This document shows positions 4,298-46,950 of a stretch of DNA of 64,000 bases, in pieces (position 1 is the first letter of the stretch; each line of letters starts with the position of its first letter). The notes under the pieces are model-generated. The model made no database searches and was not told the origin of the DNA. It was given only the letters and a program-made list of their open reading frames with translations. This stretch comes from Paludibacteraceae bacterium (GTDB lineage Bacteria > Bacteroidota > Bacteroidia > Bacteroidales > Paludibacteraceae), in the NCBI GenBank assembly GCA_017467185.1, contig JAFTSS010000085.1, forward strand, positions 1 through 64,000. The letters are read 5' to 3'. The position numbers and the translations under genes were made by a program.

Positions 4298-4478
4298 AGT
4301 AAATTTTTTAATATGTTAAAAAACAGTTAGTTGTTGTTTTTGTGCGTAAAGTATAGTTTACGAGACAAAGGTAAGCATTAAATTGCTTATAAGCAAATTT
4401 TTGAGGAGGAATTTTTCAAAAATGTTTGTTTTTGTGTTTTGGGTAGTTTTTTTAGATATAATAACAGTTTTTTCTTTT

Positions 4479-4725
4479 AGACATAATGACATAAAGACAT
4501 AATTTTTTTTCTGCATACGCCTTGCTACATCTACGATGTATCTTGGCGGAAGAATGACAGACCTATCGGTATTAAAATCTGTCATTCTTTGGTTGAGATG
4601 AAACTTTGGTTTCAGCAAAGCTTATGTTAAGAGTGATAAATTTTGTCATTATGTCATTTTGTCTCAAAATTAATCTGTTTGAAATTAATTTTGAGTGAGT
4701 TTGCTACTATTTATAAGCTCTATTT
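4479..4725 (+). mobile_element. MITE-like element family A, copy 1 (terminal inverted repeats AGACATAATGACA / TGTCATTATGTCAT)
   Basis: Near-identical to copy 2 and similar to copy 3. It has an internal perfect hairpin aagaatgacaga...tctgtcattctt. Confidence 0.7.
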
Positions 4726-4730
4726 CTTTT

Positions 4731-4975
4731 AGACATAATGACATAAAGACATAATTTTTTTTTCTGCATACGCCTTGCTACATCTACGATGTATCTTGGC
4801 GGAAGAATGACAGACCTATCGGTATTAAAATCTGTCATTCTTTGGCTGAGATGAAACTTTGGTTTCAGCAAAGCTTGTGTTAAGAGTGATAAATTTTGTC
4901 ATTATGTCATTTTGTCTTAAAATTAATCTGTTTGAAATTAATTTTGAGTGAGTTTGCTACTATTTAACGTGAGTT
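4731..4975 (+). mobile_element. MITE-like element family A, copy 2 (tandem with copy 1)
   Basis: About 97% identical to 4479-4725. Confidence 0.7.
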
Positions 4976-5368
4976 CGATATAACTTTATAGCACACGGAA
5001 AACACGGATGACACAGAATTTGATTATTTATCTCCCACAGATTTTTTAACAAGATTATTGCTGTGCTCGGCAATTAGAGTAAACTCTATTGCTCTCGCTT
5101 ATCGCAATAATTCACAGATTTCTCAGATATTTTTCTTTCTTTACTATTCGATTTTTATCAAGATTTTGTTTATATTCAGCATAACCCAAATAAATTTGGC
5201 TTCTGCTCTCACTTATCACAAAATTCGCTCTTTTGCTACGCAAAAATAACTTCGTTGAAATTGCTTTCGTTCGGCAACTGAAGTAAACTTCGTTGCTCTC
5301 ACTTATTCGCAATTTTCGCTCTACTGATAACACGGATGCCATACGGCGTTTTATATCGAACGGACGTT
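4966..5368 (+). mobile_element. MITE-like element family B, copy 1 (18-bp TIR AACGTGAGTTCGATATAA / TTATATCGAACGGACGTT), enlarged by an internal duplication
   Basis: Its TIRs are shared with the copies at 14209 and 46690. The flanking hexamer TATTTA is duplicated. The right TIR supplies the last codons and stop of ispG. Confidence 0.65.
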
Positions 5369-9253: not shown

Positions 9254-9256
9254 TTG

Positions 9257-9365
9257 GAGTGAGGAATTAGGAATTAGGAATTAGGAATGAGGAATTCGGA
9301 GTTAGGAATTGAATTTCTCAATTCTCAACTTTCAACTTTCAATTTTCAAATTTCAATTTTTTGTA
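9257..9365 (+). repeat. heptamer microsatellites (AGGAATT)n then (TCAACTT/TCAATTT)n immediately 5' of the antiporter start codon
   Basis: Direct inspection. Confidence 0.8.
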
Positions 9366-9726
9366 CGTTTCTGCAAAGTTAGTCATTTTTTTTTAATTGA
9401 GCAATAGTGCAAAACTTATGCCTGTGGCGGATTTTTATTAGTTTTGTTAAAAAATCTTGTGTTGTTTTATTGGATTTGTTAATAAATTACTGTGTTTTTG
9501 TTAAATTACGACTATTATTTGTAAAATATTTAGCATTTAGTGTTAAATTAACGTTAAATTTTAATTTTACGCTTGCTATTTTGTTAAAAAGTTGTACCTT
9601 TGCAGTGTCAAAACGAATTAACTTAGTTTTGGAGGTTTTTTTATAGATTATAGATTATAGATAATGTGGACAGAAGTTTTGCGTGAGCAAGGCTTCTGTT
9701 TTTTTTGTAAGGATATGGCAAAAAAA

Positions 9727-9754
9727 GTAGAGACGCAAAATTTTGCGTCTCCAC
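9727..9754. repeat. palindromic element gtagagacgcaaaattttgcgtctccac (family GAGACGCAA-N-TTGCGTCTC)
   Basis: Near-perfect inverted repeat in an intergenic region. Confidence 0.7.
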
Positions 9755-9854
9755 TAAAATTTTTTTCATAAAATTAGGGGGAGTGGTCGAAGACCGATGG
9801 GGTTAATACTTGTTATCTGTAATCTGTACTCTATTATCTGTTATTTGTATTATA

Positions 9855-11717: not shown

Positions 11718-12090
11718 AATAATTAAAGTTTTAGTGATTAATATAATTCGTTTTATAAAATAGAGACTATAGGTGAAATAGTAACTATAGGAGCAATAGA
11801 GACTATAGAAACTATAGTAGAGGGGAGATTAAACAGGCGTTAATTTAATATTAGGTGTATCAGGTGGTTATTAAAAATGTACAAATAAAGTGGATGACGG
11901 TTTTTTTCGGCAGAGGTTGTTTGCACCTTCGATAAGGGTAGGTTGTGGATTTAGTTGTACATTTTGACACAAAAAAAACGTGGAATTCGACTGTTGTCGT
12001 TCCACGAACTGAGGCTGTCGCATTGCCTTGAAGTCGGAACAGACAACGCGAAGCCCACGCTGAAATGTATGTATATTTATACCCCTACAG

Positions 12091-12312: not shown

Positions 12313-13251
12313 TTATTCCGAAATAATTTTTACGTTTTCGGCTATTATTGTTTTGTATTTTTCTTTTATTTCGTTTGGTAAGAACGATAGGTCTATCATT
12401 TCATACCATGCAGGAATAGTTTTATTGAATTTTTTGAATATATTGGCAATAGTTTTTTCTTCTAAACCTGAATTTTGCATTGCTATTTCGAAGTCTATTT
12501 TTTTTATCTTCCGTTTTTTGCTATTCAGATTCAATGCCAATTCTTCAGTGTCTTCTGGTAAAACTAATTGTGTTGATAAAAGGTTGTAAGCAGGAGATAA
12601 TATATGTCCGTATCCGATTGGTTTATATAGTGAAAAGTTCTTTAAATGCATATCGGAATTTCCAACTAACCACGAGAATAGAACTATTTCCCAAAATTTG
12701 ATGATGTCTAATTTTGGTACAGATGAATATTTGGCAATTAGTTTCGCTATTTGTTCGTATGACCCTTTATATTTATGCTCTGTTAATCTTTCTGATAATT
12801 GACACATATCTTCCATTGCAAGTTTGTATCCATTGTTTAATCTATCAATGCGACGAGTCAAATAGCAAAGGCGACCATCGGCAATTGGTATCAATGTATG
12901 AGGTACAACGTCAATACCAGATATTTCAGCCAAATGCATAGTTAAATCTTCGATTTCTGGTAGATTGGCATAAATGTCGGTTTGAGGTTTTAATATGTAT
13001 CGTCCCCATAAACCAACAATAGTGAATCTTTTTTCTTTGCTCTCTGTAGTGATATCTAACGAAAGTTTAGCTTGAACCCCAGTTAGTGTGGTTTGACTGC
13101 GAATGACTTCTTCTGCCAATTTGTTTAAATCAGCATGATGAAAATTGGCAATTGGGCACGTTGTATCGTTGAATATTTTTTTTGAACATGTGCGATGAAA
13201 CCCAATTTCGCCATTTTTTAATTCTTTGTAACAATAAAAACATTTAGCCAT
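12313..13251 (-). CDS. HipA-like serine/threonine kinase toxin (HipT-like: kinase core without the HipA N-terminal subdomain, with N-terminal CxxC...HxxC zinc ribbon)
   Basis: 312 aa. It carries the catalytic-loop motif VGNSDMHLKNFSL typical of the HipA family and an N-terminus CFYCYKEL...HRTC. Confidence 0.75.
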   Translation of the reverse strand: MAKCFYCYKELKNGEIGFHRTCSKKIFNDTTCPIANFHHADLNKLAEEVIRSQTTLTGVQAKLSLDITTESKEKRFTIVGLWGRYILKPQTDIYANLPEIEDLTMHLAEISGIDVVPHTLIPIADGRLCYLTRRIDRLNNGYKLAMEDMCQLSERLTEHKYKGSYEQIAKLIAKYSSVPKLDIIKFWEIVLFSWLVGNSDMHLKNFSLYKPIGYGHILSPAYNLLSTQLVLPEDTEELALNLNSKKRKIKKIDFEIAMQNSGLEEKTIANIFKKFNKTIPAWYEMIDLSFLPNEIKEKYKTIIAENVKIISE

Positions 13252-13255
13252 ATCT

Positions 13256-13582
13256 CTATTCTTCTTCTTTTATTTCAATGACACTAATAGCTCCTATGCA
13301 ATCACGGCAACAAGCTAATAATAGCGACATGCGGTCGCGATTGTTTATTTTCCAATTGCGCTCTGCTATATCAAGTAGCCAGCCTTCAGGTATTAAACCA
13401 TCAAAAAATGGGAATAACACTTTGTCGTGGTATGTTTCTTCTTGCAGTGGTAGTGTCAAACTAATTGGTTCGGCATCTGGTTGTACTAGATATTCTTTCT
13501 TGTACTGAAAAGAATAACCATTGTCTGTTTCTCGTAAAATGCCAACTTGTCTGTCTCGTAGATATATATATGCTTGTTTCAT
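13256..13582 (-). CDS. HipA N-terminal-domain protein (HipS-like third component)
   Basis: 108 aa. A 5-nt gap separates it from the kinase gene, and its start overlaps the hipB-like stop. Its length and position match HipS of the HipBST systems. Confidence 0.65.
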   Translation of the reverse strand: MKQAYIYLRDRQVGILRETDNGYSFQYKKEYLVQPDAEPISLTLPLQEETYHDKVLFPFFDGLIPEGWLLDIAERNWKINNRDRMSLLLACCRDCIGAISVIEIKEEE

Positions 13583-13785
13583 TATTTATCTCTATCTTGT
13601 TTGATTGGACCAACTTCGTAACCAAATAGATTTAATACTTGGTTCAATTTGTCAAGACGTAAAGTCTCTTTACCTTGTTCTAAATCACGAATAAAACGTA
13701 ATCCAACTCCTGATTTTTCGGATAAGTCAATTTGTGTTAGGTGATATTGCTTGCGCATTGTTTTTATAAATTCTGCAATTGTCAT
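13582..13785 (-). CDS. XRE-family helix-turn-helix antitoxin (HipB-like)
   Basis: 67 aa containing the HTH LTQIDLSEKSGVGLRFIRDLEQGK. Confidence 0.75.
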   Translation of the reverse strand: MTIAEFIKTMRKQYHLTQIDLSEKSGVGLRFIRDLEQGKETLRLDKLNQVLNLFGYEVGPIKQDRDK

Positions 13786-13806
13786 AGTTGTTTTTTTGTC
13801 GATTAT

Positions 13807-13906
13807 TATACCTTATAGGGTATAATTTATTGTTTAATTATTTATTTTATACCCGAAAAGGTATATTTTTGTTCTTATTTGGTGATATTATACCCGTTCG
13901 GGGTTA
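13807..13906. promoter_or_regulatory. three palindromic operator-like sites TATACC-N6-GGTATA upstream of the hipB-like gene
   Basis: tataccttatagggtata (13807-13824), tatacccgaaaaggtata (13848-13865) and the imperfect tatacccgttcggggtta (13889-13906). Confidence 0.5.
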
Positions 13907-14208
13907 TTTTGTGTTGCAAAGGTAGAAATTATTTTTTGAATATCCAATTATTCTAAAATATTTTTTTATTGGTGGTCTGGTAAAAAATAAAGCAATTATT
14001 CAAACTGTTAATAAACAAAGGGGAGATAAGATAATCTTATGAGAGGGGGAGTTTTTAGTTCGACGTTTTCAACGTCGTAGAGTGTGGGGAGTTTTCTTCT
14101 TCTGCAGGTAATTTTTGCGATATCGCTTCGCTTCTCGCAAAAATCACCCGCAGTTACGCATAATTCGACGTTTTCAACGTCGTTGTATCTTGAATTCTCC
14201 TTAATTTT

Positions 14209-14452
14209 AACGTGAGTTCGATATAACTTTATAGCACACGGAGCCAACGGTCTTGAGCCTTGGCGAAAATGCACAGATGACACGGAGATTTTTCATTACA
14301 TACCCCTCTGTTCAGCAGACATATTGAGCGGACGCACGAGCCGTGCGTCCCTACAATGAGGAGGATTTTTGCCGAATTCGCTCTTTTGCTACGCAAAAAA
14401 CGCTCTACGGATTGTACGGATGCCATACGGCATTTTATATCGAACTGACGTT
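14209..14452 (+). mobile_element. MITE-like element family B, copy 2 (244 bp, 18-bp TIRs, flanked by duplicated TTAATTTTA)
   Basis: TIRs aacgtgagttcgatataa / ttatatcgaactgacgtt. It contains an internal palindrome gacgcacgagccgtgcgtc. Confidence 0.7.
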
Positions 14453-14592
14453 AATTTTATTGTGAAATTATAAATATTTTAATTCGCATAGGTTATTTCG
14501 TTTATATGAATTATCATAATATAATTTTTAGCGGACAGTAATAATTTTTTAATGATGGATATTAGAACTTTGTTTTGAATTTATAGAAATCC

Positions 14593-14632
14593 TTTTACAT
14601 AAACAACGGCTGAACCGCATTGCGATTCAGCC
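14593..14632 (-). terminator. long perfect hairpin aaacaacggctgaa-loop-ttcagccgttgttt downstream of the ppiD-like gene
   Basis: 14-bp perfect stem. There is no strong U-tract, which is common in Bacteroidetes. Confidence 0.4.
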
Positions 14633-14658
14633 GTTGTTTATGTAGGATATTATTTTGA

Positions 14659-16960: not shown

Positions 16961-18226
16961 TTATGCTTTATTGTTAGTTATAAGTTTTACTAAATCAATA
17001 CGATTGTTGTGGGCTTGCATTATTTTGAATGTATAGTTTTCGATTTCGATAGTGTCGTTTAGTTTTGGGAATTTTTGATAGTGATGCAAGATATATCCTG
17101 CTATTGTAACATAGTTGTCTGATTCTGGAATATCGAAGTCGAATTTTGAATTAGCTGTATCTATCTCTAATCGTCCAGATAGGATGTATTCATTGTCTGC
17201 AATTTGGCGAGCTACCCATTCGCGGTTATCGTGTTCGTCTTCTATTTCGCCAAATATCTCTTCGATGATATCTTCGAGAGTAACAATACCAGCTGTACCT
17301 CCAAATTCGTCAACAACAACGGCAATACTTTTCTTTTCTTGCATGAATATGTCCATCAATTTGTTAGCAGCCATAGTTTCTGGAACGATAGGTAATGGAC
17401 GTATCTGTTTTTTCCAATCTTCAGGATTTTTGAATAGGTCGTTAGAGTGGAAATAACCTATGATATTGTCGATGCTTTCGCGATAGATTAGTATTTTTGA
17501 GTATCCTGTATTTGTAAATGTATTGCGAAGGTCTATTAACGTAGTTCCTTCTTCTGGTAGAGCTGTTATTTCGGTGCGAGGTATGGCGCAATCGCGAAGT
17601 TTTACTTCAGAGAAATCAAGTGCGTTTTGGAATATTTTCACATCGTGTTCAATCTCTTCTTGACTGTCAGAACCTTCTATAGACTCGTTGATTAAATAGT
17701 CGAGGTCAACTTTGCTGAGTTCGTGACTTTCTTGTTGAGGATTATAGAGTTTGAATAGGCGAAGTATGTTTTTAGAGAGGAATGTGGTAAATATTGTAAT
17801 AGGGTAGAGTAGTATATATATAATGTACATGATGGGTGAAAATACATTGAGCCATATATTAGGACGGCTTTTAAATATCATTTTAGGAATGAATTCGCCG
17901 GTGAAAAGTACAATGATTGTAGCAATGATTGTTTGTATAATCATTATTACAAAATCGGATGTAACGATATATTGTTTTATGATTCCAGTGAGCAGATTTG
18001 CCATTTGGATACTATAGACAACAAGGGCAATGTTGTTGCCTACGAGCATTGTAGATATATATTGTTCGCTATGGTGATAGAAGAAATCAACTATTTTGGA
18101 TGTTAGCGAATTGGATTTTTTGTCTATTTCAAAGCGTAGTTTATTGGATGAGACAAAAGCTATTTCCATTCCAGAAAATAGCGCAGAAAATATTAATGAT
18201 ATGGCTATAGCCCAATAATTGACCAT
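16961..18226 (-). CDS. CorC/HlyC-family transporter (DUF21-CBS pair-CorC_HlyC), GldE-like
   Basis: 421 aa with N-terminal TM helices (DUF21), CBS domains and a C-terminal transporter-associated domain. Confidence 0.8.
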   Translation of the reverse strand: MVNYWAIAISLIFSALFSGMEIAFVSSNKLRFEIDKKSNSLTSKIVDFFYHHSEQYISTMLVGNNIALVVYSIQMANLLTGIIKQYIVTSDFVIMIIQTIIATIIVLFTGEFIPKMIFKSRPNIWLNVFSPIMYIIYILLYPITIFTTFLSKNILRLFKLYNPQQESHELSKVDLDYLINESIEGSDSQEEIEHDVKIFQNALDFSEVKLRDCAIPRTEITALPEEGTTLIDLRNTFTNTGYSKILIYRESIDNIIGYFHSNDLFKNPEDWKKQIRPLPIVPETMAANKLMDIFMQEKKSIAVVVDEFGGTAGIVTLEDIIEEIFGEIEDEHDNREWVARQIADNEYILSGRLEIDTANSKFDFDIPESDNYVTIAGYILHHYQKFPKLNDTIEIENYTFKIMQAHNNRIDLVKLITNNKA

Positions 18227-18233
18227 TATTATT

Positions 18234-18690
18234 TAGTTTAGAGTTAAAAGTTTAGAGTTAAGAGTTAAGAGTTAAGAGTTTAGAGTTAAGAGTTAAGAGT
18301 TTAGTGTTTAGAGTTAAGAGTTAAGAGTTTAGTGTTTAGGGTTAAGAGTTTAGTGTTTAGAGTTAAGAGTTTAGTGTTTAGAGTTTAGTGTTTAGAGTTA
18401 AGAGTTTAGCGTTTAGAGTTAAGAGTTAAGAATTAAGAATTAAAAATTAAAACATTTAATTCCACATTCCACATTCCTCACTCCTCATTCCTCACTCCTC
18501 ATTCCTCATTCCTCATTCCCCATTCCTCATTCCCCATTCCTCATTCCCCATTCCTCATTCTCCATTCCTCATTCCCCATTCCTCATTCCACATTCCACAT
18601 TCCACATTCCTCATTCCTCATTCCCCATTCCTCATTCCACATTACTCATTCCACATTACTCATTCCACATTCCACATTCCTCATTCCTCA
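18234..18690 (+). repeat. two abutting heptamer microsatellite arrays, about 31 x (GAGTTAA/GAGTTTA/GTGTTTA) then about 33 x (CATTCCT/CATTCCA/CATTCCC)
   Basis: Direct inspection. The arrays fill the whole gap between the lptC-like stop and the gldE-like start. Confidence 0.9.
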
Positions 18691-19265
18691 ATAGGTATTG
18701 TGCCTTTTGGTTGGCGTATGCTGTATCGGCTGAAGGTTTGATTAGATTCGAACCCGATGCCGAGTATTTTTCTGTCTTTTTGGATGATTGTTATTGCAGA
18801 GTCGCTATATACGCGCTCTTCTTTTTGGTCCCAATATAGTTCATTGGTATAAAATTCCTCTTGGTTGAGATTTGTTGCCTCAATGTTGTCATTGAGTTTC
18901 CATAGTTCTAATTTGCTGTAATAAATTGCTTTATCGCATTCTATTTCAGCATCAATGTTGTAGTTTTCGTCGAAGCGTTCAAAACGTAATCCGTTTGGAA
19001 AATCCCAATATGGGGTATCGGCTTTTTCATAGACGTACCAATCTGGAGCTATAATTCTGTAACGGATTATACCAGAGTCGGATACGATGGTTGTTATTGA
19101 ATCGGCATACACCTGAGGTGTATGTTTTATATCAGTTATGGAAGATGTCATGTCGTGCTTTGTTTGGCACGAAAAAAATAATGCACAATGCAAAATGCAC
19201 AATGCACAAAAAAAATTAGATACGAGATGCGAGACACGAGATGCGAGACACGAGATGTGAGGCAT
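18681..19265 (-). CDS. hypothetical protein, possibly LptC-family periplasmic LPS-export protein. The start is uncertain (alternative ATG at 19151).
   Basis: 194 aa. The N-terminal 38 aa are encoded by an (ATGCACA)n heptamer tract. Conserved Bacteroides synteny (coaX - OMP - TPR - lptC - gldE - ppiD) supports the call. Confidence 0.35.
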   Translation of the reverse strand: MPHISCLASRVSHLVSNFFCALCILHCALFFSCQTKHDMTSSITDIKHTPQVYADSITTIVSDSGIIRYRIIAPDWYVYEKADTPYWDFPNGLRFERFDENYNIDAEIECDKAIYYSKLELWKLNDNIEATNLNQEEFYTNELYWDQKEERVYSDSAITIIQKDRKILGIGFESNQTFSRYSIRQPKGTIPIEE

Positions 19266-19288
19266 AAGTTGTTGAATAGTAAAAAATA

Positions 19289-19335
19289 GACACGAGACAC
19301 GAGAGCAAAAATCTTGTTTCTCGTGTCTTGTGTCT
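19289..19335 (-). terminator. hairpin built from inverted (GACACGA) heptamers, followed on the minus strand by a T-run; terminator of the TPR gene
   Basis: agacacgagacacgagagc-loop-ctcgtgtcttgtgtct, with atttttta downstream on the minus strand. Confidence 0.5.
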
Positions 19336-19349
19336 AATATCTAAAAAAG

Positions 19350-20660
19350 TTATTTGCTACGAACAGTAGTTGTTTCATTTACCCAACCGCCTACGTAGTG
19401 CGATTTGCCTTCTTCTACGTCAGGGTGCATGAATACCTCTTCTTTAGAAGGGAAATATGCGCTATATGTACGGATGAGTTTGTTAGCTTGTTCAATCATA
19501 TCTTCTGTTGGTTCTACACTTTTTGCTTTTGCAAATTGGTCAACTGATGCCCAATATACTGCTTTTTGGAGTGTTGGGTCGTCAGATACTTTTGCTTGTG
19601 CATAAACAAGACCAAGCATGATATGAGGTTGTCCTTGTGCAGGATTTTTAGCTAACGATTCTTTGCAATATTTACGTACATTTTGGTATTGCTCTTTTTT
19701 GTAATATACTTGAGCAATGCGGAACAAGTTGTCGGCAATATCTAAATCTTCAGTTGAAAGATTTACAGCTTCTTGATAATATTCAATAGCTTTGTCTAAA
19801 TCGCCTTTTACGTATGACATATTGCCAAGACCAGTAGCAGCTTCGGCAGATGGTGAAATTTTGTGAGCATATTCAGCCGCTTTGTAGTATGCTTCGTGTT
19901 CGATACATTTCAAGCGTTTGAACAATTTCATTACGCCTTCAAGATATTTGAGGTCAGCATTGTTACGTTCAACATTTGGCAAGAAGATTTCGTTCATTTT
20001 TGCGCAATCTGCAACGCCCGAAGCAGCAAAAAGTACATCAACAGCAGCTTTTACACTTGTATAGTCTTCGGCATTTTTGAGGTCAGCATTTTGACCATTT
20101 GCTGTTAAGATAGCATCAGCAAAAGTGTAGTCGCCGATAAATTGTTCAGCCAAAGTGTTGTCTGCTTTATAAAGATTAGCAGATGTAAATACAAAGAGTT
20201 GTAATTCGTTGGCTGCAGCGGCATTGCCCAAACCGTGAATAGCTTCTTTAATCCAAGGATAAATAGTTGCATTATCGTCTGGGAAGTATTTGTTATGCTT
20301 TGATGCTTTGTCTGCTAAAATTGCAGGACGAGGAGTTTTTTTGTCGTTTCCAAAATATTGGATGCGGTCATCATACAATTTCATCAATTGATTGAATGCA
20401 GCATTAAATTCATCTTGAGTTGTAGCTTGTTTGATTTTCCATTCGAGGATTCTAACACCGAGAGCATAGATGTTTTTTGATGCAGATGGACACTCAGTGT
20501 AAACTTTCATCCATGGCTCGTAAGCGTCGGCATAGTTTTTAACTTTTGCATACTCAGTGAAAAGTGAAAGGTTCACTTTGCATTCTTCTGACATTTGTGC
20601 CGCAATATTGCTTACAAACAACATCGCCACAAATAAAGCAGTTAATTTTAATGATTTCAT
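19350..20660 (-). CDS. tetratricopeptide-repeat lipoprotein/periplasmic protein
   Basis: 436 aa with a signal peptide and multiple TPR-like helical repeats (e.g. AIEYYQEAVNL). Confidence 0.55.
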   Translation of the reverse strand: MKSLKLTALFVAMLFVSNIAAQMSEECKVNLSLFTEYAKVKNYADAYEPWMKVYTECPSASKNIYALGVRILEWKIKQATTQDEFNAAFNQLMKLYDDRIQYFGNDKKTPRPAILADKASKHNKYFPDDNATIYPWIKEAIHGLGNAAAANELQLFVFTSANLYKADNTLAEQFIGDYTFADAILTANGQNADLKNAEDYTSVKAAVDVLFAASGVADCAKMNEIFLPNVERNNADLKYLEGVMKLFKRLKCIEHEAYYKAAEYAHKISPSAEAATGLGNMSYVKGDLDKAIEYYQEAVNLSTEDLDIADNLFRIAQVYYKKEQYQNVRKYCKESLAKNPAQGQPHIMLGLVYAQAKVSDDPTLQKAVYWASVDQFAKAKSVEPTEDMIEQANKLIRTYSAYFPSKEEVFMHPDVEEGKSHYVGGWVNETTTVRSK

Positions 20661-20732
20661 AGCTATTAATGATTAGTTATTAATGATTATTTATTAGTTA
20701 AAATGAACAACTCTCCAATTCGCAATTCTTCA

Positions 20733-22036: not shown

Positions 22037-22807
22037 CTATTTTGATATATTTTTCGCAATAAAGTTTAATCCCTTTGGCACAAGCATCGGTTCAAAAAAT
22101 AGCGAGGAGTGAGAAGTGAGGAGCGAGGAGTTATCTATAATGTTTAAATTAAAAAGTCCTCCAGTCAATATCACTTTTAAGTTATTATACTCCTTTAAAT
22201 ATTTTTCAATGTAGCCATTTATTTCGTTTATCACACCCCAATATGCCCCATTCAAAATTGCCTCACGGGTTGTTAAGCCCAATTGAGCATTGTGCATTTT
22301 TTGCTTTGGTTCAAAACCATTTTCTATTGAGCATTGTGGAAGTGCTGCCGTAAAATGATGCATAGCATCCAATCTCATTTGTATGCCAGGGGCAATATTA
22401 CCACCTACGAAATGACCATCAATCAACAAATCGTACGTATTGCATGTGCCACAATCAATTACCAAATAATTTCCCTTGCCAGCAATTGCGTATGCCCCAG
22501 CCAAAGCCGCAATCCTATCCTTGCCCAAAGTTTCAGGTGTTAAGTAATCAATTTCGAATGGTAGAGGTGATTTGTATGACAATAGATGATATTTTGCGTC
22601 TATTTCGTCTAATAATTGTGCAATTCTTCTCTCTTTTTCAGGATTAACACTCGACACGATAACATATTTGAGTAGGTCAAACCGAGAAAACAAATTAACT
22701 ATGTCTTCTTTATTAAATTGTTCAAATACAATATGTTCAACCAACCGTTCTCCATCGAAAACAGCTGCCTTTGTTTTAGTATTGCCTATGTCGATAGTCA
22801 GTACCAT
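22037..22807 (-). CDS. coaX: type III pantothenate kinase
   Basis: 256 aa with N-terminus MVLTIDIGNTKTKAAVFDG, characteristic of CoaX. Confidence 0.85.
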   Translation of the reverse strand: MVLTIDIGNTKTKAAVFDGERLVEHIVFEQFNKEDIVNLFSRFDLLKYVIVSSVNPEKERRIAQLLDEIDAKYHLLSYKSPLPFEIDYLTPETLGKDRIAALAGAYAIAGKGNYLVIDCGTCNTYDLLIDGHFVGGNIAPGIQMRLDAMHHFTAALPQCSIENGFEPKQKMHNAQLGLTTREAILNGAYWGVINEINGYIEKYLKEYNNLKVILTGGLFNLNIIDNSSLLTSHSSLFFEPMLVPKGLNFIAKNISK

Positions 22808-22965
22808 CCGTTTCTATATATTTAGTTGCAAAGTTACAAAAAAAAATCATAACAAACTAATGATTATTTATTAAAAAACAATAAAAAATTGTGTGATTGT
22901 TATTTGTTTGAAAGGAGTGTGATTTTTTTTTGTTTTATCTACTTTGATATGTTGAATAATTTTAT

Positions 22966-24828: not shown

Positions 24829-24868
24829 GGGGTGTTAGTTACTAGTTATTAGTTATTAGTTATTAGTT

Positions 24869-25037
24869 AGTAATTTTCAATTTTTGCGTTAAGCGAGAGC
24901 AATGAAAATTATTTCAATTGCCGAGTGGAGCAAAAATCACGACCGAAGGGAGTAATTCTCAATTTTTGCGATAAGCGAGAGCAATGAAAATTATTTCAAT
25001 TGCCGAGCGGAGCAAAAATCACGACCGAAGGGAGTAA
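24869..25037 (+). repeat. tandem duplication of an approximately 84-bp unit (aattttcaatttttgcgttaagcgagagcaatgaaaattatttcaattgccgag...gaagggagta)
   Basis: Two copies about 93% identical. They are flanked by (TAGTTAT)4 on the left and (AACACTC)n on the right. Confidence 0.8.
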
Positions 25038-25140
25038 CTCTCCAACTCTAAACACTCAACACTCAACATTCAACACTCAACACTCAACACTCAACACTCA
25101 ACTCTAAACACTAAACTCTCAACACTAAACTTTATATATT

Positions 25141-26629: not shown

Positions 26630-27094
26630 ATGATACAGAAAGATATTATTACTAATTTGGTTATCAGCAAATTAGCTGATACAAGATATTTTTTGGTTGA
26701 TGTTACAGTTTCGGCTGATAATGTGATAAAGGTAGAAATTGATGCCGAGGAGGGTGTTGATATTGACTTTTGTGTTGAACTAAATCGTTTTATTGAAGCT
26801 AACTTTGATCGTGAGGTGGAGGATTATGAGCTTGAAGTAGGTTCGGCAGGTCTTACATCTCCGTTTAAGGTGAAACGTCAATACGAAAAAAATCTAAACA
26901 AAGAGGTTGAAGTGTTAGAGGCGAATGGTATTAAGCATGAGGGCGTGTTGGTAGAGGTAGATGATGAAAAATTCGCTATTGACGAGACTAAAATGATACG
27001 TAAAGAAGGTGATAAGCGCAAAAAGCCTTATACAGAGCGTATAGAATTTAAGTATTCAGAAATAAAATATACAAAATATAAATTTAAAATTTAA
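26630..27094 (+). CDS. rimP: ribosome maturation factor RimP
   Basis: 154 aa in the conserved position before nusA. Confidence 0.8.
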   Translation: MIQKDIITNLVISKLADTRYFLVDVTVSADNVIKVEIDAEEGVDIDFCVELNRFIEANFDREVEDYELEVGSAGLTSPFKVKRQYEKNLNKEVEVLEANGIKHEGVLVEVDDEKFAIDETKMIRKEGDKRKKPYTERIEFKYSEIKYTKYKFKI

Positions 27095-27180
27095 TTTGAA
27101 ATTTTAAATTTGAAATTTTAAATCTTCGTTATGATTTTCAACTTTCAACTTTCAATTTTCAATTTTCAACTTTAAACGTA

Positions 27181-28431
27181 ATGGCTAAAAAAGAGAAAGT
27201 AAATCTTATTGAAACCTTTTCGGAATTCAAAGATTTGAAGGCGATTGATCGCTCTACATTGATTGCTATCTTGGAAGATTCGTTCCGTAGTGTGATTGCT
27301 AAAATGTATGGAACTGATGAAAACTATGATGTGATTATCAACCCTGAGACTGGCGACTGTGAAATTCTTCGTACACGTACTATCGTTGAAGATGATGAGT
27401 TGGAAAACGAAAGCATGGAAATTGCACTCTCAGCAGCTCAAGAAATAGATGAGGACTATGAAGTGGGAGAGGAAGTTGTCGATAAAGTAGAATTTTTGAG
27501 TTTTGGACGTCGTGCAGTTCTTAATCTTCGTCAAACTTTGGCTTCTCGTATCCTTGAACTTCAAAAAGAGGCTCTTTATGAAAAATATGCTGATATTATC
27601 GGTCAAGTAGTATCTGGCGATGTTTATCAAGTTTGGAAAAAAGAGGTGCTTTTGCTTGATGAAGATAAAAACGAAATGCTTCTTCCTAAACAAGAGCAAA
27701 TTCCTAACGATTTTTATCGTAAAGGTGAACCAGTACGTGCAGTAGTGCTTCGTGTTGATAATAAAAACAACAACCCTAAAATCTATCTTTCTCGTACTTC
27801 TCCTTTGTTCTTGGAACGTTTGTTTGAACAAGAAGTTCCTGAAATTCACGATGGTTTGATTACTATCAAAAAAGTAGTTCGTATTCCTGGTGAGCGTGCT
27901 AAAGTGGCTGTTGAATCTTTCGATGATCGTATCGACCCAGTAGGAGCATGCGTAGGTATGAAGGGTGCTCGTATTCATGGTATAGTTCGTGAATTGCGTA
28001 ATGAAAATATCGATGTTATCAACTATACAAATAACATTAGTTTGTATATTGCTCGTGCGCTTAGTCCTGCTAAAGTTCAAACTATCGAACTTGATGAGGA
28101 AAACAAAAAAGCAAATGTATATCTTCGTCCAGAAGAAATTTCACTTGCTATTGGTAAAAATGGTAATAATATTAAATTGGCAACAATGCTTACAGGTTAT
28201 ACAATCGATGTATTCCGTAATGACGTTGAAGTTGATGAAGAAGATATTTACCTTGATGAATTTAGCGATGAAATTGATGGTTGGATTATCGATGTATTGA
28301 AAAGCATTGGTTGTGATACAGCTAAAAATGTATTGGCACTTTCTCGTGAAGAATTGATTCAACGTTCTGACTTAGAAGAAGAAACAATCGACGAAGTATT
28401 GGCTATTTTGAAAGCCGAATTTGAAGACTAA
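27181..28431 (+). CDS. nusA: transcription termination/antitermination factor NusA
   Basis: 416 aa with NusA N-terminal, S1 and KH domains. Confidence 0.95.
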   Translation: MAKKEKVNLIETFSEFKDLKAIDRSTLIAILEDSFRSVIAKMYGTDENYDVIINPETGDCEILRTRTIVEDDELENESMEIALSAAQEIDEDYEVGEEVVDKVEFLSFGRRAVLNLRQTLASRILELQKEALYEKYADIIGQVVSGDVYQVWKKEVLLLDEDKNEMLLPKQEQIPNDFYRKGEPVRAVVLRVDNKNNNPKIYLSRTSPLFLERLFEQEVPEIHDGLITIKKVVRIPGERAKVAVESFDDRIDPVGACVGMKGARIHGIVRELRNENIDVINYTNNISLYIARALSPAKVQTIELDEENKKANVYLRPEEISLAIGKNGNNIKLATMLTGYTIDVFRNDVEVDEEDIYLDEFSDEIDGWIIDVLKSIGCDTAKNVLALSREELIQRSDLEEETIDEVLAILKAEFED

Positions 28432-28509
28432 AATAAATAGTTATGAATTAGTATTTTTTATCTCTAATTCGTTAATAACTAATAATTAGTAACTAATAAC
28501 TAAAAATAT

Positions 28510-31500
28510 ATGGCAAGATTAGGAAAATTAGTAAAAACATTAAAGATTGGTATTGGTACTGCAACAGACTTTTTGAAATCAAAAGGTTTCACTGTCGAGG
28601 AGGATTTTAATGCTAAAATTACAGGCGAGCAAGAAGCTTTACTTTTAAAAGAATTTGCTACACCTGAAATGTTGGCTGAATTTGAGGCTCAAAAGAAAGA
28701 GCCTAAAAAGGCAAAAGTAGAAGAATCTAAAAAAGAGGTTAAGGAATCGACTAAAGACCAGAAAAAAATAGAGGTGAAGGTAGAACCTCAATTTAATGTT
28801 GTAGGTAAAATAGATTTGGATGCTCTTAATAAGCCTAAAGTAGAGAAAAAAGAGGAGCCAAAAATTGAAACTCAAGCAGAATCTAAAACGATAGAGGCTC
28901 AAAAAGTCGTGCCTCAAACTGTTGAAGTGAAGAAAGAGAAACCTAAAAAAGAGGTTGCTCCGATTGCCCCTGAATCAAAACAAGAGGTAAAAAAAGAGGA
29001 ACCAAAGCCTAAAAAAGAGGAGAAAACAAAAGAACCAAAACCAGCTCAAAAAGAAAATCTTGCCAAAGAAAATAAAACAGAAAAAACTGCTGTGAAAGCA
29101 GAATCAAATGTGGGTACGCAACAAGTTACCTCTGTTAAAGCAGAACCTAAAAAAGCAGCAGAACCTAAGAAAGTAGAAGAACCAAAACCAGAAAAGAAAG
29201 AGGAAGAAATTTTCACTTTCCGTAAAGTTGAGTTTAAGAGCGATATTAAAGTTCTTGATAAAATTGACCTTTCTGCCATAAATAGTAATACTCGTCCTGC
29301 TAAAAAATCTAAAGAGGAATTACGTAAAGAGCGTATAGCTAAAGATCGTCAAGCTGCCGAAGCTCGTCGTAAAGCGCAAAAAGAGGCTAATAAAAAAGCT
29401 GCTAAAGAGGGTAAATCTGATGAAGTATTTAGTGTGGATAAGCCTAAATTGCAAGGACCTAATGTCGTTGATAAAATTGATTTGGGTTCACAAGGTAAAG
29501 GTGGTGAAAAAGGCGATAAGAAAAAACGTAAACGTATTGGAGGTGAACGCGTTGATGTAAGTAAAGCTATGCAAGGTGGTGGTCAACCACAAGCTGGCGG
29601 ACAAAAAGAGGGTAAGAAAAAGAATAAACATCAAAAAGCTATTCATACTCCTGTTGTTAGCGAAGAAGATGTTGCACGTCAAGTAAAAGAGACTTTAGCT
29701 CGTCTTACAGAGGGTAATAAAGGTGTTAAAAAAGGTGCAAAATATCGTAAAGAAAAACGTGAAGCCAATGCTCAACGCTTGCAGAATGAGCAAGAAATGG
29801 AACAACTCGAATCAAAAATTCTTAAACTTACCGAGTTTGTTACCGCTAACGAGTTGGCTGCTATGATGAATGTGCCTGTAACTCAAATTATTCAAACTTG
29901 TTTCAATCTTGGTTTGTTCGTTTCTATCAACCAGCGTCTTGATGCTGAAACTATCAATATTGTAGCAGACGAATTTGGTTTCCAAACAGAGTTTGTCTCT
30001 GCCGATGTAGTTAATGCTATTCAAGAAGAGGAAGATAACGAGGAAGACCTCCTCCCTCGTCCACCTATTGTTACCGTAATGGGTCACGTTGACCACGGTA
30101 AAACTTCGTTGCTCGACTATATCCGTAAGTCTAACGTTATTGCAGGTGAAGCTGGTGGTATCACTCAACATATTGGAGCGTACAACGTAACACTCGAAGA
30201 TGGTCGCCATATTACATTCCTCGATACTCCTGGTCACGAAGCATTTACTGCTATGCGTGCTCGTGGTGCTCAAGTTACCGATATTGCTATCATCATTGTG
30301 GCAGCCGATGATAATGTCATGCCTCAAACAGTCGAAGCTATCAATCACGCTTCAGCTGCAGGTGTACCTATTGTATTTGCAATCAATAAAGTAGATAAAC
30401 CAAGTGCTAACCCAGATAAGATTAAAGAATCGCTTGCAGCGATGAATTATCTTGTTGAAGAGTGGGGCGGTAAATATCAATCTCAAGACATCTCTGCTAA
30501 ACATGGTATGGGTGTCAATGAACTGCTTGAAAAAGTATTGCTCGAGGCCGAATTGCTTGATCTTAAGGCAAATCCTAATCGTAAAGCATCAGGTTCGGTT
30601 ATCGAATCTTCGCTTGATAAAGGTCGTGGCTATGTGGCAACTGTGCTTGTAAATAATGGTACGTTGCGAGTTGGTGATATTATGCTTGCTGGTACAGCAT
30701 ACGGACGTGTGAAAGCGATGTTTAACGAACGTAATCAACGTATTAAAGAGGCTGGCCCTGCAGAACCTGTTATTGTACTTGGTCTTAATGGAGCACCTCA
30801 AGCTGGTGATAATTTCAATATCTTCGATCAAGATCACGAAGCTCGCGATATTGCAAATAAACGTGAACAATTAGCTCGTGAACAAGGTCTTCGTACTTCT
30901 AAACATCTTACTCTCGAAGAGATTGGCCGTCGTATTGCTCTCGGCAACTTCCAAGAACTCAATCTTATTGTTAAAGGTGACGTGGATGGTTCTATCGAAG
31001 CACTTTCTGACTCGCTTTTGAAACTTTCTACCGAAGAAATTCAAGTTAATGTAATCCATAAAGCTGTAGGTCAAATCTCTGAAAGCGATGTTATGTTGGC
31101 TACTGCTTCTAACGCAATTATCGTAGGTTTCCAAGTGCGTCCTTCTATGGAGGCTCGCAAATTGGCAGAAAAAGAAGAAGTTGATATTCGTCTTTATTCA
31201 ATTATTTACGATGCAATCGAAGAGCTTAAAGCCGCTATGGAAGGTATGTTGGCTCCTGATATTAAAGAGGAAATCACTGCTACACTCGAAATTCGTGAGA
31301 CATTCAAAATCACTAAAGTTGGTACAATTGCAGGTTGTATGGTTAAAGAAGGTAAAATCAAACGTACCAATAAGATACGTCTCATTCGCGATGGTATCGT
31401 GATTTATACTGGCGAACTTGCATCCCTCAAACGTATGAAAGATGACGTTAAAGAGGTTAACTCTGGTTACGAATGTGGTCTTAATATTGCTAATTACAAT

Positions 31501-31563
31501 GATATTCGTATAGGTGATATTATCGAAGCATACGAAGAAGTAGAAGTTAAGAAAACACTTTAA
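28510..31563 (+). CDS. infB: translation initiation factor IF-2
   Basis: 1017 aa. It has a K/E-rich N-terminal region and a GTPase domain ([29 protein letters not shown]). Confidence 0.95.
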
Positions 31564-31579
31564 TTAGAAATAAAATAAT

Positions 31580-31625
31580 AGACACGAGATGTAAGACATA
31601 TTTGTCTTGTGTCTCGTGTCTTTTA
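31580..31625 (+). terminator. hairpin (agacacgagatgtaagaca / tgtcttgtgtctcgtgtct) plus TTTT after infB
   Basis: Inverted heptamer-family arms followed by a T-run. Confidence 0.55.
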
Positions 31626-31630
31626 GTAAT

Positions 31631-31700
31631 TAGTTTTTTTATAATTTCTATAGCCACTATAGCTACTATAGCCACTATAGTTTCTATAGCCACTATAACT
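31631..31700 (+). repeat. nonamer array (CTATAGCCA/CTATAGCTA)x~6 upstream of cvpA
   Basis: Direct inspection. The same family occurs at 47706-47790, 42141-42170 and 11745-11830. Confidence 0.8.
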
Positions 31701-35313: not shown

Positions 35314-35386
35314 GAGCCACATTGGGGACTCGAACCCCAGACCTACTCATTACGAATGAGTTGCTCTACCAACTGAGCTAATGTGG
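35314..35386 (-). tRNA. tRNA-Thr (anticodon CGT)
   Basis: 73 nt. The cloverleaf folds manually (acceptor GCCACAT/ATGTGGC, D-arm GCTC-AGTTGGTA-GAGC, anticodon loop TTCGTAA, T-arm TGGGG-TTCGAGT-CCCCA). No CCA is encoded. Confidence 0.85.
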
Positions 35387-35396
35387 CAAGGTTATT

Positions 35397-40626: not shown

Positions 40627-40687
40627 TTACTCATTCCTTAGGTTTTGGAGAGCAATGTAGCTTACTTTAGTTGCTGGTGAAAAATAA

Positions 40688-42142: not shown

Positions 42143-42214
42143 CTACTATAGTTCCTATAGGTTCTATAATTCCTCATTCCTCATTTCTCATTTCTCATTT
42201 CTCATTCCTCATTC
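42141..42214 (+). repeat. nonamer (CTATAGNNC) then heptamer (CATTCCT/CATTTCT)x7 array immediately 5' of the helicase start
   Basis: Direct inspection. Confidence 0.8.
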
Positions 42215-46617: not shown

Positions 46618-46689
46618 TAAATATTTCAGAACTAAAGTAGGGACACGGCATGCCGTGTCCGTTGTTAAATGGAATAAAAACACTTAATT

Positions 46690-46942: not shown

Positions 46943-46950
46943 TTTGAATT

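What the first reader, a model, noticed from the sequence alone, without database searches (positions are those of the whole stretch)
18234..18690. 455-bp double heptamer array filling the whole lptC-like to gldE-like intergenic gap
About 31 units of GAGTTAA-type are followed directly by about 33 units of CATTCCT-type. The upstream gene stop codon lies in the last unit and the array ends 8 bp before the downstream gene start. This is an exceptionally long microsatellite inside what is a conserved operon-like arrangement in Bacteroides.
Basis: seen in the sequence. Interest (0 to 1): 0.5.

Follow-up and report, generated by a model that had tools for sequence, protein, structure and literature searches.

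The report
Hypervariable double heptamer microsatellite between genes
The 455-bp stretch is a real, fast-changing pair of 7-base tandem repeats that fills the untranslated spacer between two envelope genes of an uncultured gut Bacteroidales bacterium, and it is the longest local example of a known class of repeat that litters this lineage's intergenic DNA.

Summary
Window 18459-18690 holds about 33 units and 18235-18443 about 30 units, in one unbroken 7-nt register. Together they fill the 454-bp gap between an LptC-like and a GldE-like (CNNM/CBS/CorC) gene, both on the minus strand.

The array is not an assembly artefact. An independent assembly from another sample reproduces it nearly unit for unit, differing by one clean 28-bp (4-unit) indel and one substitution.

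It is not a one-off. The window has 17 period-7 arrays and none of period 4, 5, 6, 8 or 10. Every Candidatus Aphodosoma-clade relative fetched has them; 12 other Bacteroidales and Flavobacteriales loci have none.

The orthologous gap ranges from 24 to 454 bp. Within sub-lineages the lengths differ by exact multiples of 7. The two blocks appear to have grown from native seeds, namely the lptC stop-codon context and the G-poor gldE leader.

In mRNA sense, block 1 has no C and block 2 has one G. Each block alone folds to 0.0 kcal/mol, and the whole gap folds no better than shuffles. No promoter, inverted repeat or Rfam family was found.

Best reading: a slippage-driven heptanucleotide microsatellite, tolerated as a structure-free, untranslatable intercistronic spacer and leader. 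It is a new member of a known kind, and the reason for period 7 remains unexplained.

The parts
18459..18690 (-). Block 1 (next to the lptC stop). About 33 units of GGAATGN in mRNA sense (ATTCCTC/ATTCCAC/ATTCCCC on the + strand). It has no C, is 81% purine, and carries TGA stops in all three frames.
   Evidence: TRF 33.1 copies, 86% matches. Unit register. Composition A83 C0 G104 T45, identity at lag 7 = 0.86 and at lag 14 = 0.92. RNA MFE alone 0.0 kcal/mol.
18444..18458 (-). A/T-rich junction of degenerate heptamers that joins the two blocks without breaking the 7-nt register.
   Evidence: Read in register of 7 across the junction.
18235..18443 (-). Block 2 (next to the gldE start). About 30 units of CTTAACT/CTAAACT/CTAAACA in mRNA sense (AGTTAAG/AGTTTAG/TGTTTAG on the + strand). 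It has one G in 209 nt and a 28-bp higher-order repeat.
   Evidence: TRF 29.9 copies at period 7 and 7.3 copies at period 28. Composition A80 C57 G1 T71. RNA MFE alone 0.0 kcal/mol. A 28-bp block is present twice here and once in L027.
18227..18234 (-). Eight nt (AAATAATA in sense) between the last unit and the gldE ATG.
   Evidence: Sequence. The same context, CTAAACTAAATAAT..ATG, occurs in relatives.
18681..19265 (-). LptC-like lipoprotein gene. Its last codons plus stop (ATT GAG GAA TGA) are the first unit of block 1.
   Evidence: Pfam LptC E=1.7e-10. C-terminus PIEE* in all relatives. Signal peptide ..FFSC.
16961..18226 (-). GldE-like gene (CNNM transmembrane + CBS + CorC_HlyC domains) directly downstream of the array.
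   Evidence: Pfam CNNM 1.8e-32, CorC_HlyC 1.3e-21, CBS 3e-11.
22829..22836 (-). Nearest intergenic Bacteroidetes-type -7 promoter box on the minus strand (TAACTTTG), upstream of coaX. It is the inferred promoter of the coaX-hyp-TPR-lptC-gldE run.
   Evidence: TAnnTTTG scan. No other intergenic minus-strand site between 14000 and 23500.
19281..19336 (-). Hairpin built from AGACACG/CGTGTCT heptamers, followed by U6, between the TPR gene and lptC. It is terminator-like and part of the same repeat landscape.
   Evidence: RNA MFE -26.5 kcal/mol, z = -7.09. Sequence.

Best explanation
The feature is a pair of adjacent, hypermutable heptanucleotide microsatellites that together form the whole untranslated spacer between lptC and gldE.

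How each block arose (inferred). Each block grew by unit-wise slipped-strand mispairing or unequal exchange from the native sequence at its own end of the gap. Block 1 grew from the last codons plus stop codon of lptC (GAG GAA TGA). Block 2 grew from the G-poor leader of gldE (CTAAACT AAATAATA ATG).

Why it is tolerated (inferred). The spacer keeps the properties an intercistronic spacer needs in a phylum that starts translation without Shine-Dalgarno pairing. It has stop codons in all three frames. It has essentially no RNA secondary structure. A G-free A/C/U tract runs up to the start codon and can serve as an unstructured ribosome landing region.

Context (shown). The 455-bp size is one extreme allele of a strain-variable locus. 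The array belongs to a clade-wide proliferation of period-7 repeats in Candidatus Aphodosoma-like genomes.

Shown: the array is real, varies in 7n steps, is clade-specific, has the stated composition, and lacks structure, inverted repeats and a promoter box.

Inferred: origin by slippage from the seeds, co-transcription with lptC and gldE, a leader role for block 2, and any effect of length on gldE expression (for example through Rho-type polarity on a long untranslated G-free RNA).
For: Real and polymorphic. L024 is the window's own scaffold. The independent assembly L027 (lptC 100% and gldE 99.5% nt identical) has the same unit order minus one 28-bp block and with one substitution.

Strain and species variation. 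The same gap is 24-454 bp in 20 Aphodosoma-clade loci. Within sub-lineages the lengths differ by exact multiples of 7: 85/134/78, 194/131 and 454/426.

Seeds. GAGGAAT/GAATGAG units start at the lptC stop, and CTAAACT/CTAACCT units abut the gldE ATG, even in species whose gaps are only 34-90 bp.

Genome-wide habit. There are 17 period-7 arrays in 64 kb against 0 for periods 4, 5, 6, 8 and 10, and 0 in shuffles. They occur in all close relatives and in none of 12 other Bacteroidales or Flavobacteriales loci, including low-GC ones.

Spacer properties. There are 15-20 stops in each sense frame, block 1 has no C, and block 2 has one G. Each block alone folds to 0.0 kcal/mol. The whole gap gives -0.18 kcal/mol per nt against a background of -0.224 +/- 0.036, and z = -0.37 against shuffles. 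No inverted repeats were found and no Rfam family.

Leader role. Array-type leaders (n=11) have 4.1% G against 12.1% in other leaders. Their predicted structure around the start is weaker: mean -2.15 against -5.70 kcal/mol, Mann-Whitney p=0.002. Such arrays directly precede the essential genes nusA, infB and argS.

Literature. Bacteroidetes lack SD sequences and tune initiation by mRNA structure (abstracts of PMC3155529 and PMC6847099). Heptamer SSR over-representation and its attribution to polymerase slippage are reported in PMC4692102, citing Mrazek 2007.

Co-transcription. The only intergenic minus-strand TAnnTTTG box in 14-23.5 kb is upstream of coaX.
Against: There are no expression data, so transcription through the array, the leader role and any polarity effect are untested.

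A strong terminator-like hairpin lies just upstream of lptC, and no promoter box follows it. The transcript that carries the array is therefore not established.

The order 'purine-rich block, then G-free block' is unchanged by reverse complementation. It cannot prove a transcription-linked constraint and may simply reflect the seeds.

Some non-array start codons in my crude gene calls are probably wrong. That inflates the contrast.

Slippage alone does not explain two things: why only period 7 expands, and why a small vocabulary of units recurs at unlinked gaps (15 identical unit pairs against about 1-2 expected).

Block 1 carries 33 SD-like GAGG/AGGA motifs plus AUGs, which is odd for a phylum that avoids SD sequences.
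Confidence: 0.65

Rival explanations
1. Regulatory binding array. The heptamers are periodic binding sites on the mRNA for a single-stranded nucleic-acid-binding protein with a footprint of about 7 nt, such as a cold-shock-domain protein, ribosomal protein S1 or an RRM protein. Array length and unit type would then set translation or stability of the downstream gene, acting as an evolvable rheostat.
For: Period 7 is exclusive. The unit vocabulary is limited and recurs at unlinked gaps: 15 identical pairs against 1.1-1.8 expected, and ATTCCTC occurs at five gaps. The arrays are single-stranded as RNA and abut start codons. The same proposal was made for TAACTGA repeats in Beggiatoaceae (PMC4679880).
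Against: Many unrelated unit sequences coexist in one genome. The same gap carries entirely different unit families in strains whose flanking proteins are identical or more than 94% identical. Copy number runs from 2 to 33 with no sign of constraint. No candidate binder has been identified. Downstream gene functions show no pattern.
Confidence: 0.15
2. Polarity module. The long untranslated, C-containing, G-free, unstructured block 2 acts as a loading site for termination factor Rho. Expansion would then lower gldE transcription relative to lptC.
For: Block 2 has C57:G1 over 209 nt and 0.0 kcal/mol structure, and the gap is closed in all three frames. These are the sequence properties of Rho utilisation sites as established in E. 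coli (general knowledge).
Against: G-free heptamer blocks also precede essential genes inside conserved operons such as rimP-nusA-infB. Strong polarity there would be harmful, although those blocks are much shorter. Rho site rules for Bacteroidales are not established. No expression data are available.
Confidence: 0.1
3. Hairpin, attenuator or terminator. The purine-rich and pyrimidine-rich blocks pair with each other to form a long stem that terminates transcription or masks the gldE start.
For: Other gaps in the window do contain heptamer-built hairpins: AGACACG/CGTGTCT with z = -7.1 and -5.3, and TTTGAAA/TTTCAAC with z = -2.2. Sense RNA of the focal gap pairs better than antisense, -91 against -54 kcal/mol.
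Against: The focal gap folds no better than dinucleotide shuffles: -79.9 against -77.95 +/- 5.33, z = -0.37. It has no inverted repeats, is less structured per nt than the genomic background, and has no terminal U-run.
Confidence: 0.04
4. Assembly artefact. The array length was created by mis-assembly of short reads.
For: The source is a metagenome scaffold. Two small-k assemblies (L025, L026) break inside the array.
Against: An independent assembly of a different sample (L027, k141) reproduces 33 of 33 units of block 1 in order with one substitution, and 26 of 30 units of block 2. The interspersed unit variants make the tract largely resolvable.
Confidence: 0.04
5. Classical phase-variation (contingency) switch that turns a gene on or off through repeat-number change.
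For: Copy number is hypervariable between strains. The flanking genes are envelope-related.
Against: The array lies neither inside an ORF nor between promoter elements. Changes occur in 7n steps within a non-coding spacer and cannot shift a reading frame or promoter spacing.
Confidence: 0.02

Closest known systems
Heptanucleotide long simple sequence repeats of bacteria (Mrazek et al. 2007, as cited in PMC4692102); GGGAATC / GGGGA(T/C)T arrays of Xanthomonas and Nostoc (Rehm et al. 2015, PMC4692102)
   Same: These are tandem 7-nt units over-represented in intergenic DNA, while other long periods are not. Length and sequence vary extensively between close relatives at the same gene pairs. Arrays occur inside operons (26 units between pecE and pecF in Nostoc). 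Some occur as inverted pairs. Polymerase slippage has been proposed as the cause.
   Different: The units here are A/T-rich three-letter sequences with no G-quadruplex potential. The host is an uncultured gut Bacteroidales. The array has about 63-65 units in two abutting blocks, longer than the 26 units reported there.
TAACTGA and associated heptamer direct repeats of Beggiatoaceae, Cyanobacteria and five Bacteroidetes, including Paludibacter propionicigenes, Gramella forsetii and Aequorivita (MacGregor 2015, PMC4679880)
   Same: These are intergenic heptamer arrays, mostly in forward orientation within a few nt of a start codon that lacks an SD sequence. Arrays of mixed heptamers occur in Bacteroidetes, with up to 43 copies. 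Close relatives have shorter gaps at the same locus. Indels come in 7-nt steps. Downstream gene functions show no pattern.
   Different: There are no TAACTGA direct repeats in this window. The nearest unit, TAACTCT, matches 5 of 7. Here many unit families coexist, and the focal array is a two-block spacer inside an operon.
Cyanobacterial STRR (short tandemly repeated repetitive) heptamers of Calothrix/Nostoc (mentioned in PMC4692102; otherwise from general knowledge)
   Same: Heptamer period, dispersed arrays in non-coding DNA, restricted to a lineage.
   Different: The phylum and the unit sequences differ. No shared units were tested or found.

Membership tests
Simple sequence repeat / microsatellite (heptanucleotide long-SSR class) | Head-to-tail tandem copies of a short unit, far beyond chance | tested here: met
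   TRF finds 29.9 and 33.1 copies with 84-86% matches. Shuffles give 0 arrays.
Simple sequence repeat / microsatellite (heptanucleotide long-SSR class) | Copy-number polymorphism in whole units between close relatives | tested here: met
   There is a 28-bp indel between the window and L027. Differences of 7, 49/56 and 63 bp occur within sub-lineages.
Simple sequence repeat / microsatellite (heptanucleotide long-SSR class) | Period-7-specific enrichment in intergenic DNA of the genome | tested here: met
   There are 17 arrays of period 7 against 0 of periods 4-6, 8 and 10. Nearly all are intergenic. The same holds in the clade's other loci.
TAACTGA repeat family (MacGregor 2015) | Direct repeats of the unit TAACTGA | tested here: not met
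   The window has no TAACTGATAACTGA on either strand and only 10 singleton TAACTGA.
TAACTGA repeat family (MacGregor 2015) | Forward-oriented array within a few nt upstream of a start codon lacking SD | tested here: met
   Block 2 ends 8 nt before the gldE ATG. Ten other array-type leaders are listed.
Phase-variable contingency locus | Repeat inside an ORF or between promoter elements, so that unit changes switch expression on or off | tested here: not met
   The array lies between a stop and a start codon. No TAnnTTTG box flanks it. All sense frames are closed.
Intrinsic terminator / REP-like hairpin | Stable inverted-repeat stem (plus a U-run for terminators) | tested here: not met
   z = -0.37 against shuffles. 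There are 0 inverted repeats. No terminator-like site was reported in the gap.
Rho utilisation (rut)-like region | At least 70-80 nt of untranslated, unstructured RNA with C much greater than G | tested here: met
   Block 2 has C57 and G1 in 209 nt, MFE 0.0, and stops in all frames. These are sequence features only.
Rho utilisation (rut)-like region | Rho-dependent termination downstream | not testable with these tools
   This needs transcript mapping with and without Rho inhibition.
Known structured RNA family (Rfam) | Match to a curated covariance model | tested here: not met
   The only Rfam hit in the window is a tRNA at 35315-35387.

The most novel reading that the evidence does not exclude
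In the Aphodosoma clade, heptamer arrays may be more than slippage debris. They could be a modular, evolvable system for building structure-free leaders and intercistronic spacers, read with 7-nt periodicity by a single-strand-binding protein (cold-shock-domain or S1-like). Under that reading, strain-level expansion and contraction, such as 24 to 454 bp between lptC and gldE, would tune the expression ratios of envelope genes in the gut. The limited and recurring unit vocabulary, the exclusive period, and the three-letter alphabets would be the signatures of that recognition.
Probability: 0.12. Interest if true: 0.7.

Novelty: new member of a known kind. Interest (0 to 1): 0.35.

Why it matters
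This is a clean, independently reproduced example of how far a heptanucleotide microsatellite can expand: about 65 units, making up the whole spacer of a conserved envelope-gene pair, apparently without destroying the operon.

It also adds an uncultured gut Bacteroidales clade to the few lineages in which period-7 repeats colonise intergenic DNA. These are cyanobacteria, Xanthomonas, Beggiatoaceae and some Bacteroidetes.

Practical consequences:
- Such tracts break short-read assemblies, and two of the contigs found end inside the array.
- They can be mis-called as coding. Here they run in frame into a signal peptide and into coaX.
- They provide high-resolution strain markers.

Scientific consequences. 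The clade offers many alleles of one locus. That material could be used to test why only 7-nt units expand, and whether SD-independent translation in Bacteroidetes favours G-free repeat leaders.

Tried and rejected
1. Pairing of the two blocks into a hairpin or attenuator. Rejected for this locus: z = -0.37, no inverted repeats, and less structure than the genomic background.

2. Assembly artefact. Rejected by the independent assembly L027.

3. Internal promoter. The sigma-70-type scan is uninformative for Bacteroidetes and gave fewer hits than shuffles. A custom scan for the Bacteroidetes TAnnTTTG box found none in the gap.

4. Replication-strand mutational bias as the cause of block polarity. 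Not supported. GC skew is positive throughout the window, while the skew of the arrays flips inside each gap. I also realised that the purine-then-pyrimidine order is unchanged by reverse complementation. I therefore withdrew the claim that it proves a transcription-linked constraint.

5. A global 'gap length modulo 7' constraint across species. Not found: residues 1-6 all occur. Congruence holds only within sub-lineages.

6. Coding potential. All three sense frames are closed. The + strand of block 1 is open for 73-81 codons in all three frames (HSSFLIP-like), but only because the unit cannot spell a stop. No start-to-stop ORF is listed there.

7. Structured RNA family. No Rfam hit.

8. TAACTGA membership. 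Not met.

9. Functional pattern among genes preceded by arrays. None seen: Na/H exchanger, SPFH, NusA, IF-2, PIF1-like helicase, HAD hydrolase, ArgRS, PpiD-like and GldE-like.

10. The metagenome scan returned only 8 loci. They were useful for more alleles but too few for population statistics.

Full report
**1. What is there**

Tandem Repeats Finder reports 29.9 copies of a 7-nt unit at 18235-18443 (84% matches) and 33.1 copies at 18459-18690 (86% matches).

Read in register, the + strand shows AGTTAAG, AGTTTAG and TGTTTAG units, followed by ATTCCTC, ATTCCAC and ATTCCCC units. A few A/T-rich degenerate units join them, and the 7-nt phase never breaks.

Both flanking genes are on the minus strand.
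- The upstream gene (18681-19265) matches Pfam LptC.
- The downstream gene (16961-18226) has the CNNM + CBS + CorC_HlyC architecture of GldE-type proteins.
- The lptC stop codon (TGA, 18681-18683) lies inside the first unit in the direction of transcription.
- The gldE ATG (18224-18226) lies 8 nt after the last unit.
- The arrays therefore fill the 454-bp gap.

The two genes sit in a co-directional run: coaX, hypothetical, TPR, lptC, gldE, ppiD-like.

**2. Is it real?**

The window is part of an 84-kb metagenome scaffold, and L024 is identical to it.

A contig from a different sample and assembler (L027) has lptC 100% and gldE 99.5% identical at the nucleotide level. It carries the same array:
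- All 33 units of the first block are in the same order, with one substitution.
- 26 of the 30 units of the second block are present.
- The difference is a clean deletion of one copy of a duplicated 28-bp (4-unit) block.

Two small-k assemblies break inside the array, as expected for a repeat. Assembly artefact is therefore very unlikely, and the locus is polymorphic in whole units.

**3. Organism and comparative picture**

The GldE protein is 89-97% identical to those of a dozen species-level MAGs labelled Candidatus Aphodosoma or Paludibacteraceae from animal guts.

LptC directly upstream of GldE is conserved far more widely: 21 of 23 loci across Bacteroidales and Flavobacteriales.

In 20 Aphodosoma-clade loci the same gap measures 24 to 454 bp. 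Even short gaps are built from the same two unit families:
- GAGGAAT/GAATGAG begins at the lptC stop. The protein always ends PIEE*, encoded as ATT GAG GAA TAA or TGA.
- CTAAACT/CTAACCT runs up to the gldE ATG.

Within sub-lineages that share a unit family, the lengths differ by exact multiples of 7: 85/134/78, 194/131 and 454/426 bp. Across the whole clade every residue modulo 7 occurs.

Other alleles carry different heptamers:
- L026, with an identical GldE, has AATTCTT units.
- L028, with an identical LptC, has ATTTCAA units.
- L036 has ACAGATT units.
- L028 is mosaic. Its lptC is 99.1% identical but the 5' end of gldE only 91.3%, so a recombination breakpoint lies at or near the gap.

I infer that each block was amplified from the native sequence at its own end of the gap and has since expanded and contracted rapidly.

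**4. It is one case of a clade-wide habit**

The 64-kb window contains 17 arrays of period 7 by a simple detector. It contains none of periods 4, 5, 6, 8 or 10, three of period 9, and none in shuffled sequence. TRF lists about 30 period-7 arrays. Nearly all lie between genes.

Every Aphodosoma-clade locus fetched has period-7 arrays and no other period. Twelve other Bacteroidales and Flavobacteriales loci have none, including ones with similar G+C of 35-39%.

The unit vocabulary is small. There are 15 identical unit pairs among 32 arrays, against 1.1-1.8 expected and a maximum of 12 in 1000 randomisations. ATTCCTC occurs at five gaps.

Arrays directly precede essential genes inside conserved operons (rimP-nusA-infB, argS) and show no functional theme.

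**5. Properties of the focal spacer as RNA (minus-strand sense)**

- Block 1, (GGAAUGN)33, contains no C.
- Block 2, (CUUAACU/CUAAACU/CUAAACA)30, contains a single G.
- All three frames are closed by 15-20 stops.
- Each block alone has a predicted MFE of 0.0 kcal/mol over more than 200 nt.
- Together they give only a weak zipper of 3-5-bp helices: -0.18 kcal/mol per nt against -0.224 +/- 0.036 for random genomic windows.
- The gap folds no better than dinucleotide shuffles, z = -0.37.
- There are no inverted repeats, no terminator-like site and no Rfam match.
- The Bacteroidetes -7 promoter box TAnnTTTG is easy to see in promoter-bearing gaps of this window. It is absent from this gap. The nearest intergenic minus-strand box lies upstream of coaX at 22829-22836.

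I infer that the array is transcribed with its neighbours. One caveat: a strong terminator-like hairpin made of AGACACG/CGTGTCT heptamers plus U6 lies between the TPR gene and lptC (-26.5 kcal/mol, z = -7.1). How lptC and gldE are transcribed past it is open.

**6. A recurring layout**

Written in sense orientation, gaps with two blocks always show a G-containing, purine-rich block after the stop (or after a promoter). A G-free A/C/T block then abuts the ATG. This holds at 9254-9854, 18227-18680, 20661-20732, 24829-25140 and 27095-27180, and in several alleles in relatives.

The 40 nt upstream of the ATG have 4.1% G and 20.7% C in the 11 array-type leaders, against 12.1% and 13.6% in 32 other leaders. 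The 40 nt after stops have 20.3% G and 8.1% C in array-type cases.

Predicted structure from -40 to +20 around the start is weaker for array-type leaders: mean -2.15 against -5.70 kcal/mol, p = 0.002. Coding windows average -9.06.

GC skew is positive across the whole window, and the array skew flips inside each gap. A replication-strand mutation bias therefore cannot explain the pattern.

Two caveats apply. The purine-then-pyrimidine order is unchanged by reverse complementation, so on its own it does not show a transcription-linked constraint. My gene starts are crude. The simplest reading combines the seeds (purine-rich ORF ends, G-poor leaders) with a filter: only structure-free, G-poor repeats are tolerated next to start codons.

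This fits published work that Bacteroidetes lack Shine-Dalgarno sequences and tune initiation by mRNA structure near the start (abstracts of PMC3155529 and PMC6847099).

**7. Mechanism, with rivals**

Best supported (confidence about 0.65): a slippage-driven double heptanucleotide microsatellite that is tolerated, and perhaps mildly useful, as an untranslatable, structure-free intercistronic spacer and leader. The extreme length is one allele of a fast-evolving locus.

Rivals:
- A periodic binding array for a single-strand-binding protein with a footprint of about 7 nt, as MacGregor proposed for TAACTGA repeats. The exclusive period and the limited vocabulary speak for it. Wholesale replacement of unit families between near-identical strains speaks against a sequence-specific partner.
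- Rho-type polarity on the 209-nt G-free block. The sequence features are met, but the function cannot be tested here.
- An inter-block hairpin. Tested and not supported.
- A classical phase-variation switch. The defining position is not met.
- An assembly artefact. Contradicted by L027.

**8. Comparison with what is known**

Heptamer SSRs are already known to be over-represented among long SSRs in many bacteria and have been attributed to polymerase slippage (Mrazek 2007, as cited in PMC4692102).

GGGAATC-type arrays of up to 26 units occur in Xanthomonas and Nostoc, including inside the pec operon, and their length varies extensively between relatives.

TAACTGA and mixed heptamer arrays of up to 43 copies occur in Beggiatoaceae, cyanobacteria and five Bacteroidetes, including Paludibacter. 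They often sit just upstream of start codons without an SD sequence, and their indels come in 7-nt steps.

The present array fits this class in every tested respect except unit sequence: there are no TAACTGA repeats.

No paper in the searched library connects Aphodosoma with such repeats.

What is new here:
- the host clade
- the size, about 63-65 units
- the two-block, three-letter-alphabet construction traced to native seeds
- in-frame intrusion of heptamers into coding DNA

**9. Verdict**

This is a striking but explicable member of a known repeat class. What remains unexplained is why only 7-nt units expand and why a few units recur, and that is a question about the class as a whole. Interest 0.35; novelty: new member of a known kind.

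Noticed in passing
window 19180-19261 (-), within the LptC ORF 18681-19265: The LptC signal peptide is partly encoded by in-frame heptamer repeats. TGTGCAT x4 gives FCALCILHCALFF, just before the lipobox-like FFSC. CATCTCG/TGTCTCG x5 gives HISCLASRVSHLVS. Relatives L003, L004, L009, L011 and L031 share the repeat-encoded hydrophobic core. L001, L002, L006, L007, L033 and L036 have an ordinary one. A gene caller on the source scaffold started the gene after the repeats, giving 156 aa.
   Followed up: partly
window 22100-22131 (-), inside coaX (22037-22807): Four heptamer units (AACTCCT CGCTCCT CACTTCT CACTCCT) sit in frame inside the type III pantothenate kinase gene. They encode NSSLLTSHSS between the conserved LTGG and FEPML motifs.
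   Followed up: partly
window 19281-19336 (-) and 31585-31625 (+): These are strong hairpins built from AGACACG/CGTGTCT heptamers and followed by U-runs (-26.5 kcal/mol, z -7.1; -16 kcal/mol, z -5.3). They are terminator-like. One lies between the TPR gene and lptC, with no promoter box after it. The other follows infB.
   Followed up: partly
window 11758-11817, 31648-31697, 42136-42168, 47711-47778: Arrays of a 9-nt unit, CTATAGNNN. Each lies in a gap between co-directional genes and is followed by a short G-free heptamer block and the start codon.
   Followed up: no
window 24869-25042; several copies in 4298-5350; 4471-4966: A dispersed element of about 80 bp (..TTGCGATAAGCGAGAGCAAT..AATTGCCGAGCGGAGC..) is present as 2.1 tandem copies flanked by heptamer arrays, with further copies in another gap. 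There is also a 253-bp x2 repeat at 98% identity.
   Followed up: no
window gaps 677-1090, 13583-14658, 46618-46950: A second dispersed palindromic element (GGGACGCACGGCTCGTGCGTCC-like core, with conserved flanks such as CCGTATGGCATCCGT) recurs in long intergenic regions.
   Followed up: no
window-wide; ATTCCTC-type arrays at 9262-9310, 18459-18690, 40687-40717, 42169-42214, 47785-47809: The heptamer unit vocabulary is limited and recurs at unlinked gaps: 15 identical unit pairs among 32 arrays against about 1-2 expected. ATTCCTC lies next to start codons in its C-rich orientation and next to a stop codon in its G-rich orientation.
   Followed up: partly
L028 (ENA ERZ27316010 k141_824083) against window 18000-19350: This is a mosaic relative. 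Its lptC is 99.1% identical in nucleotides but the first 231 nt of gldE only 91.3%, and the 90-bp gap carries unrelated heptamers. A recombination breakpoint therefore lies at or next to the repeat gap.
   Followed up: partly
window 26630-31563 (+): The conserved rimP-nusA-infB operon has heptamer arrays in both of its intercistronic gaps, 27095-27180 and 28432-28509.
   Followed up: partly
window 12313-13582 (-): A HipA-like toxin gene (Pfam HipA_C, 1.9e-43) lies 4 bp downstream of a small 108-aa ORF, which looks like a toxin-antitoxin pair.
   Followed up: no
window 40627-40864: The CstA-like gene called at 40865-42142 matches the Pfam model only from position 54 onward. Its true start is probably upstream, close to the ATTCCTC array at 40687-40717.
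   Followed up: no
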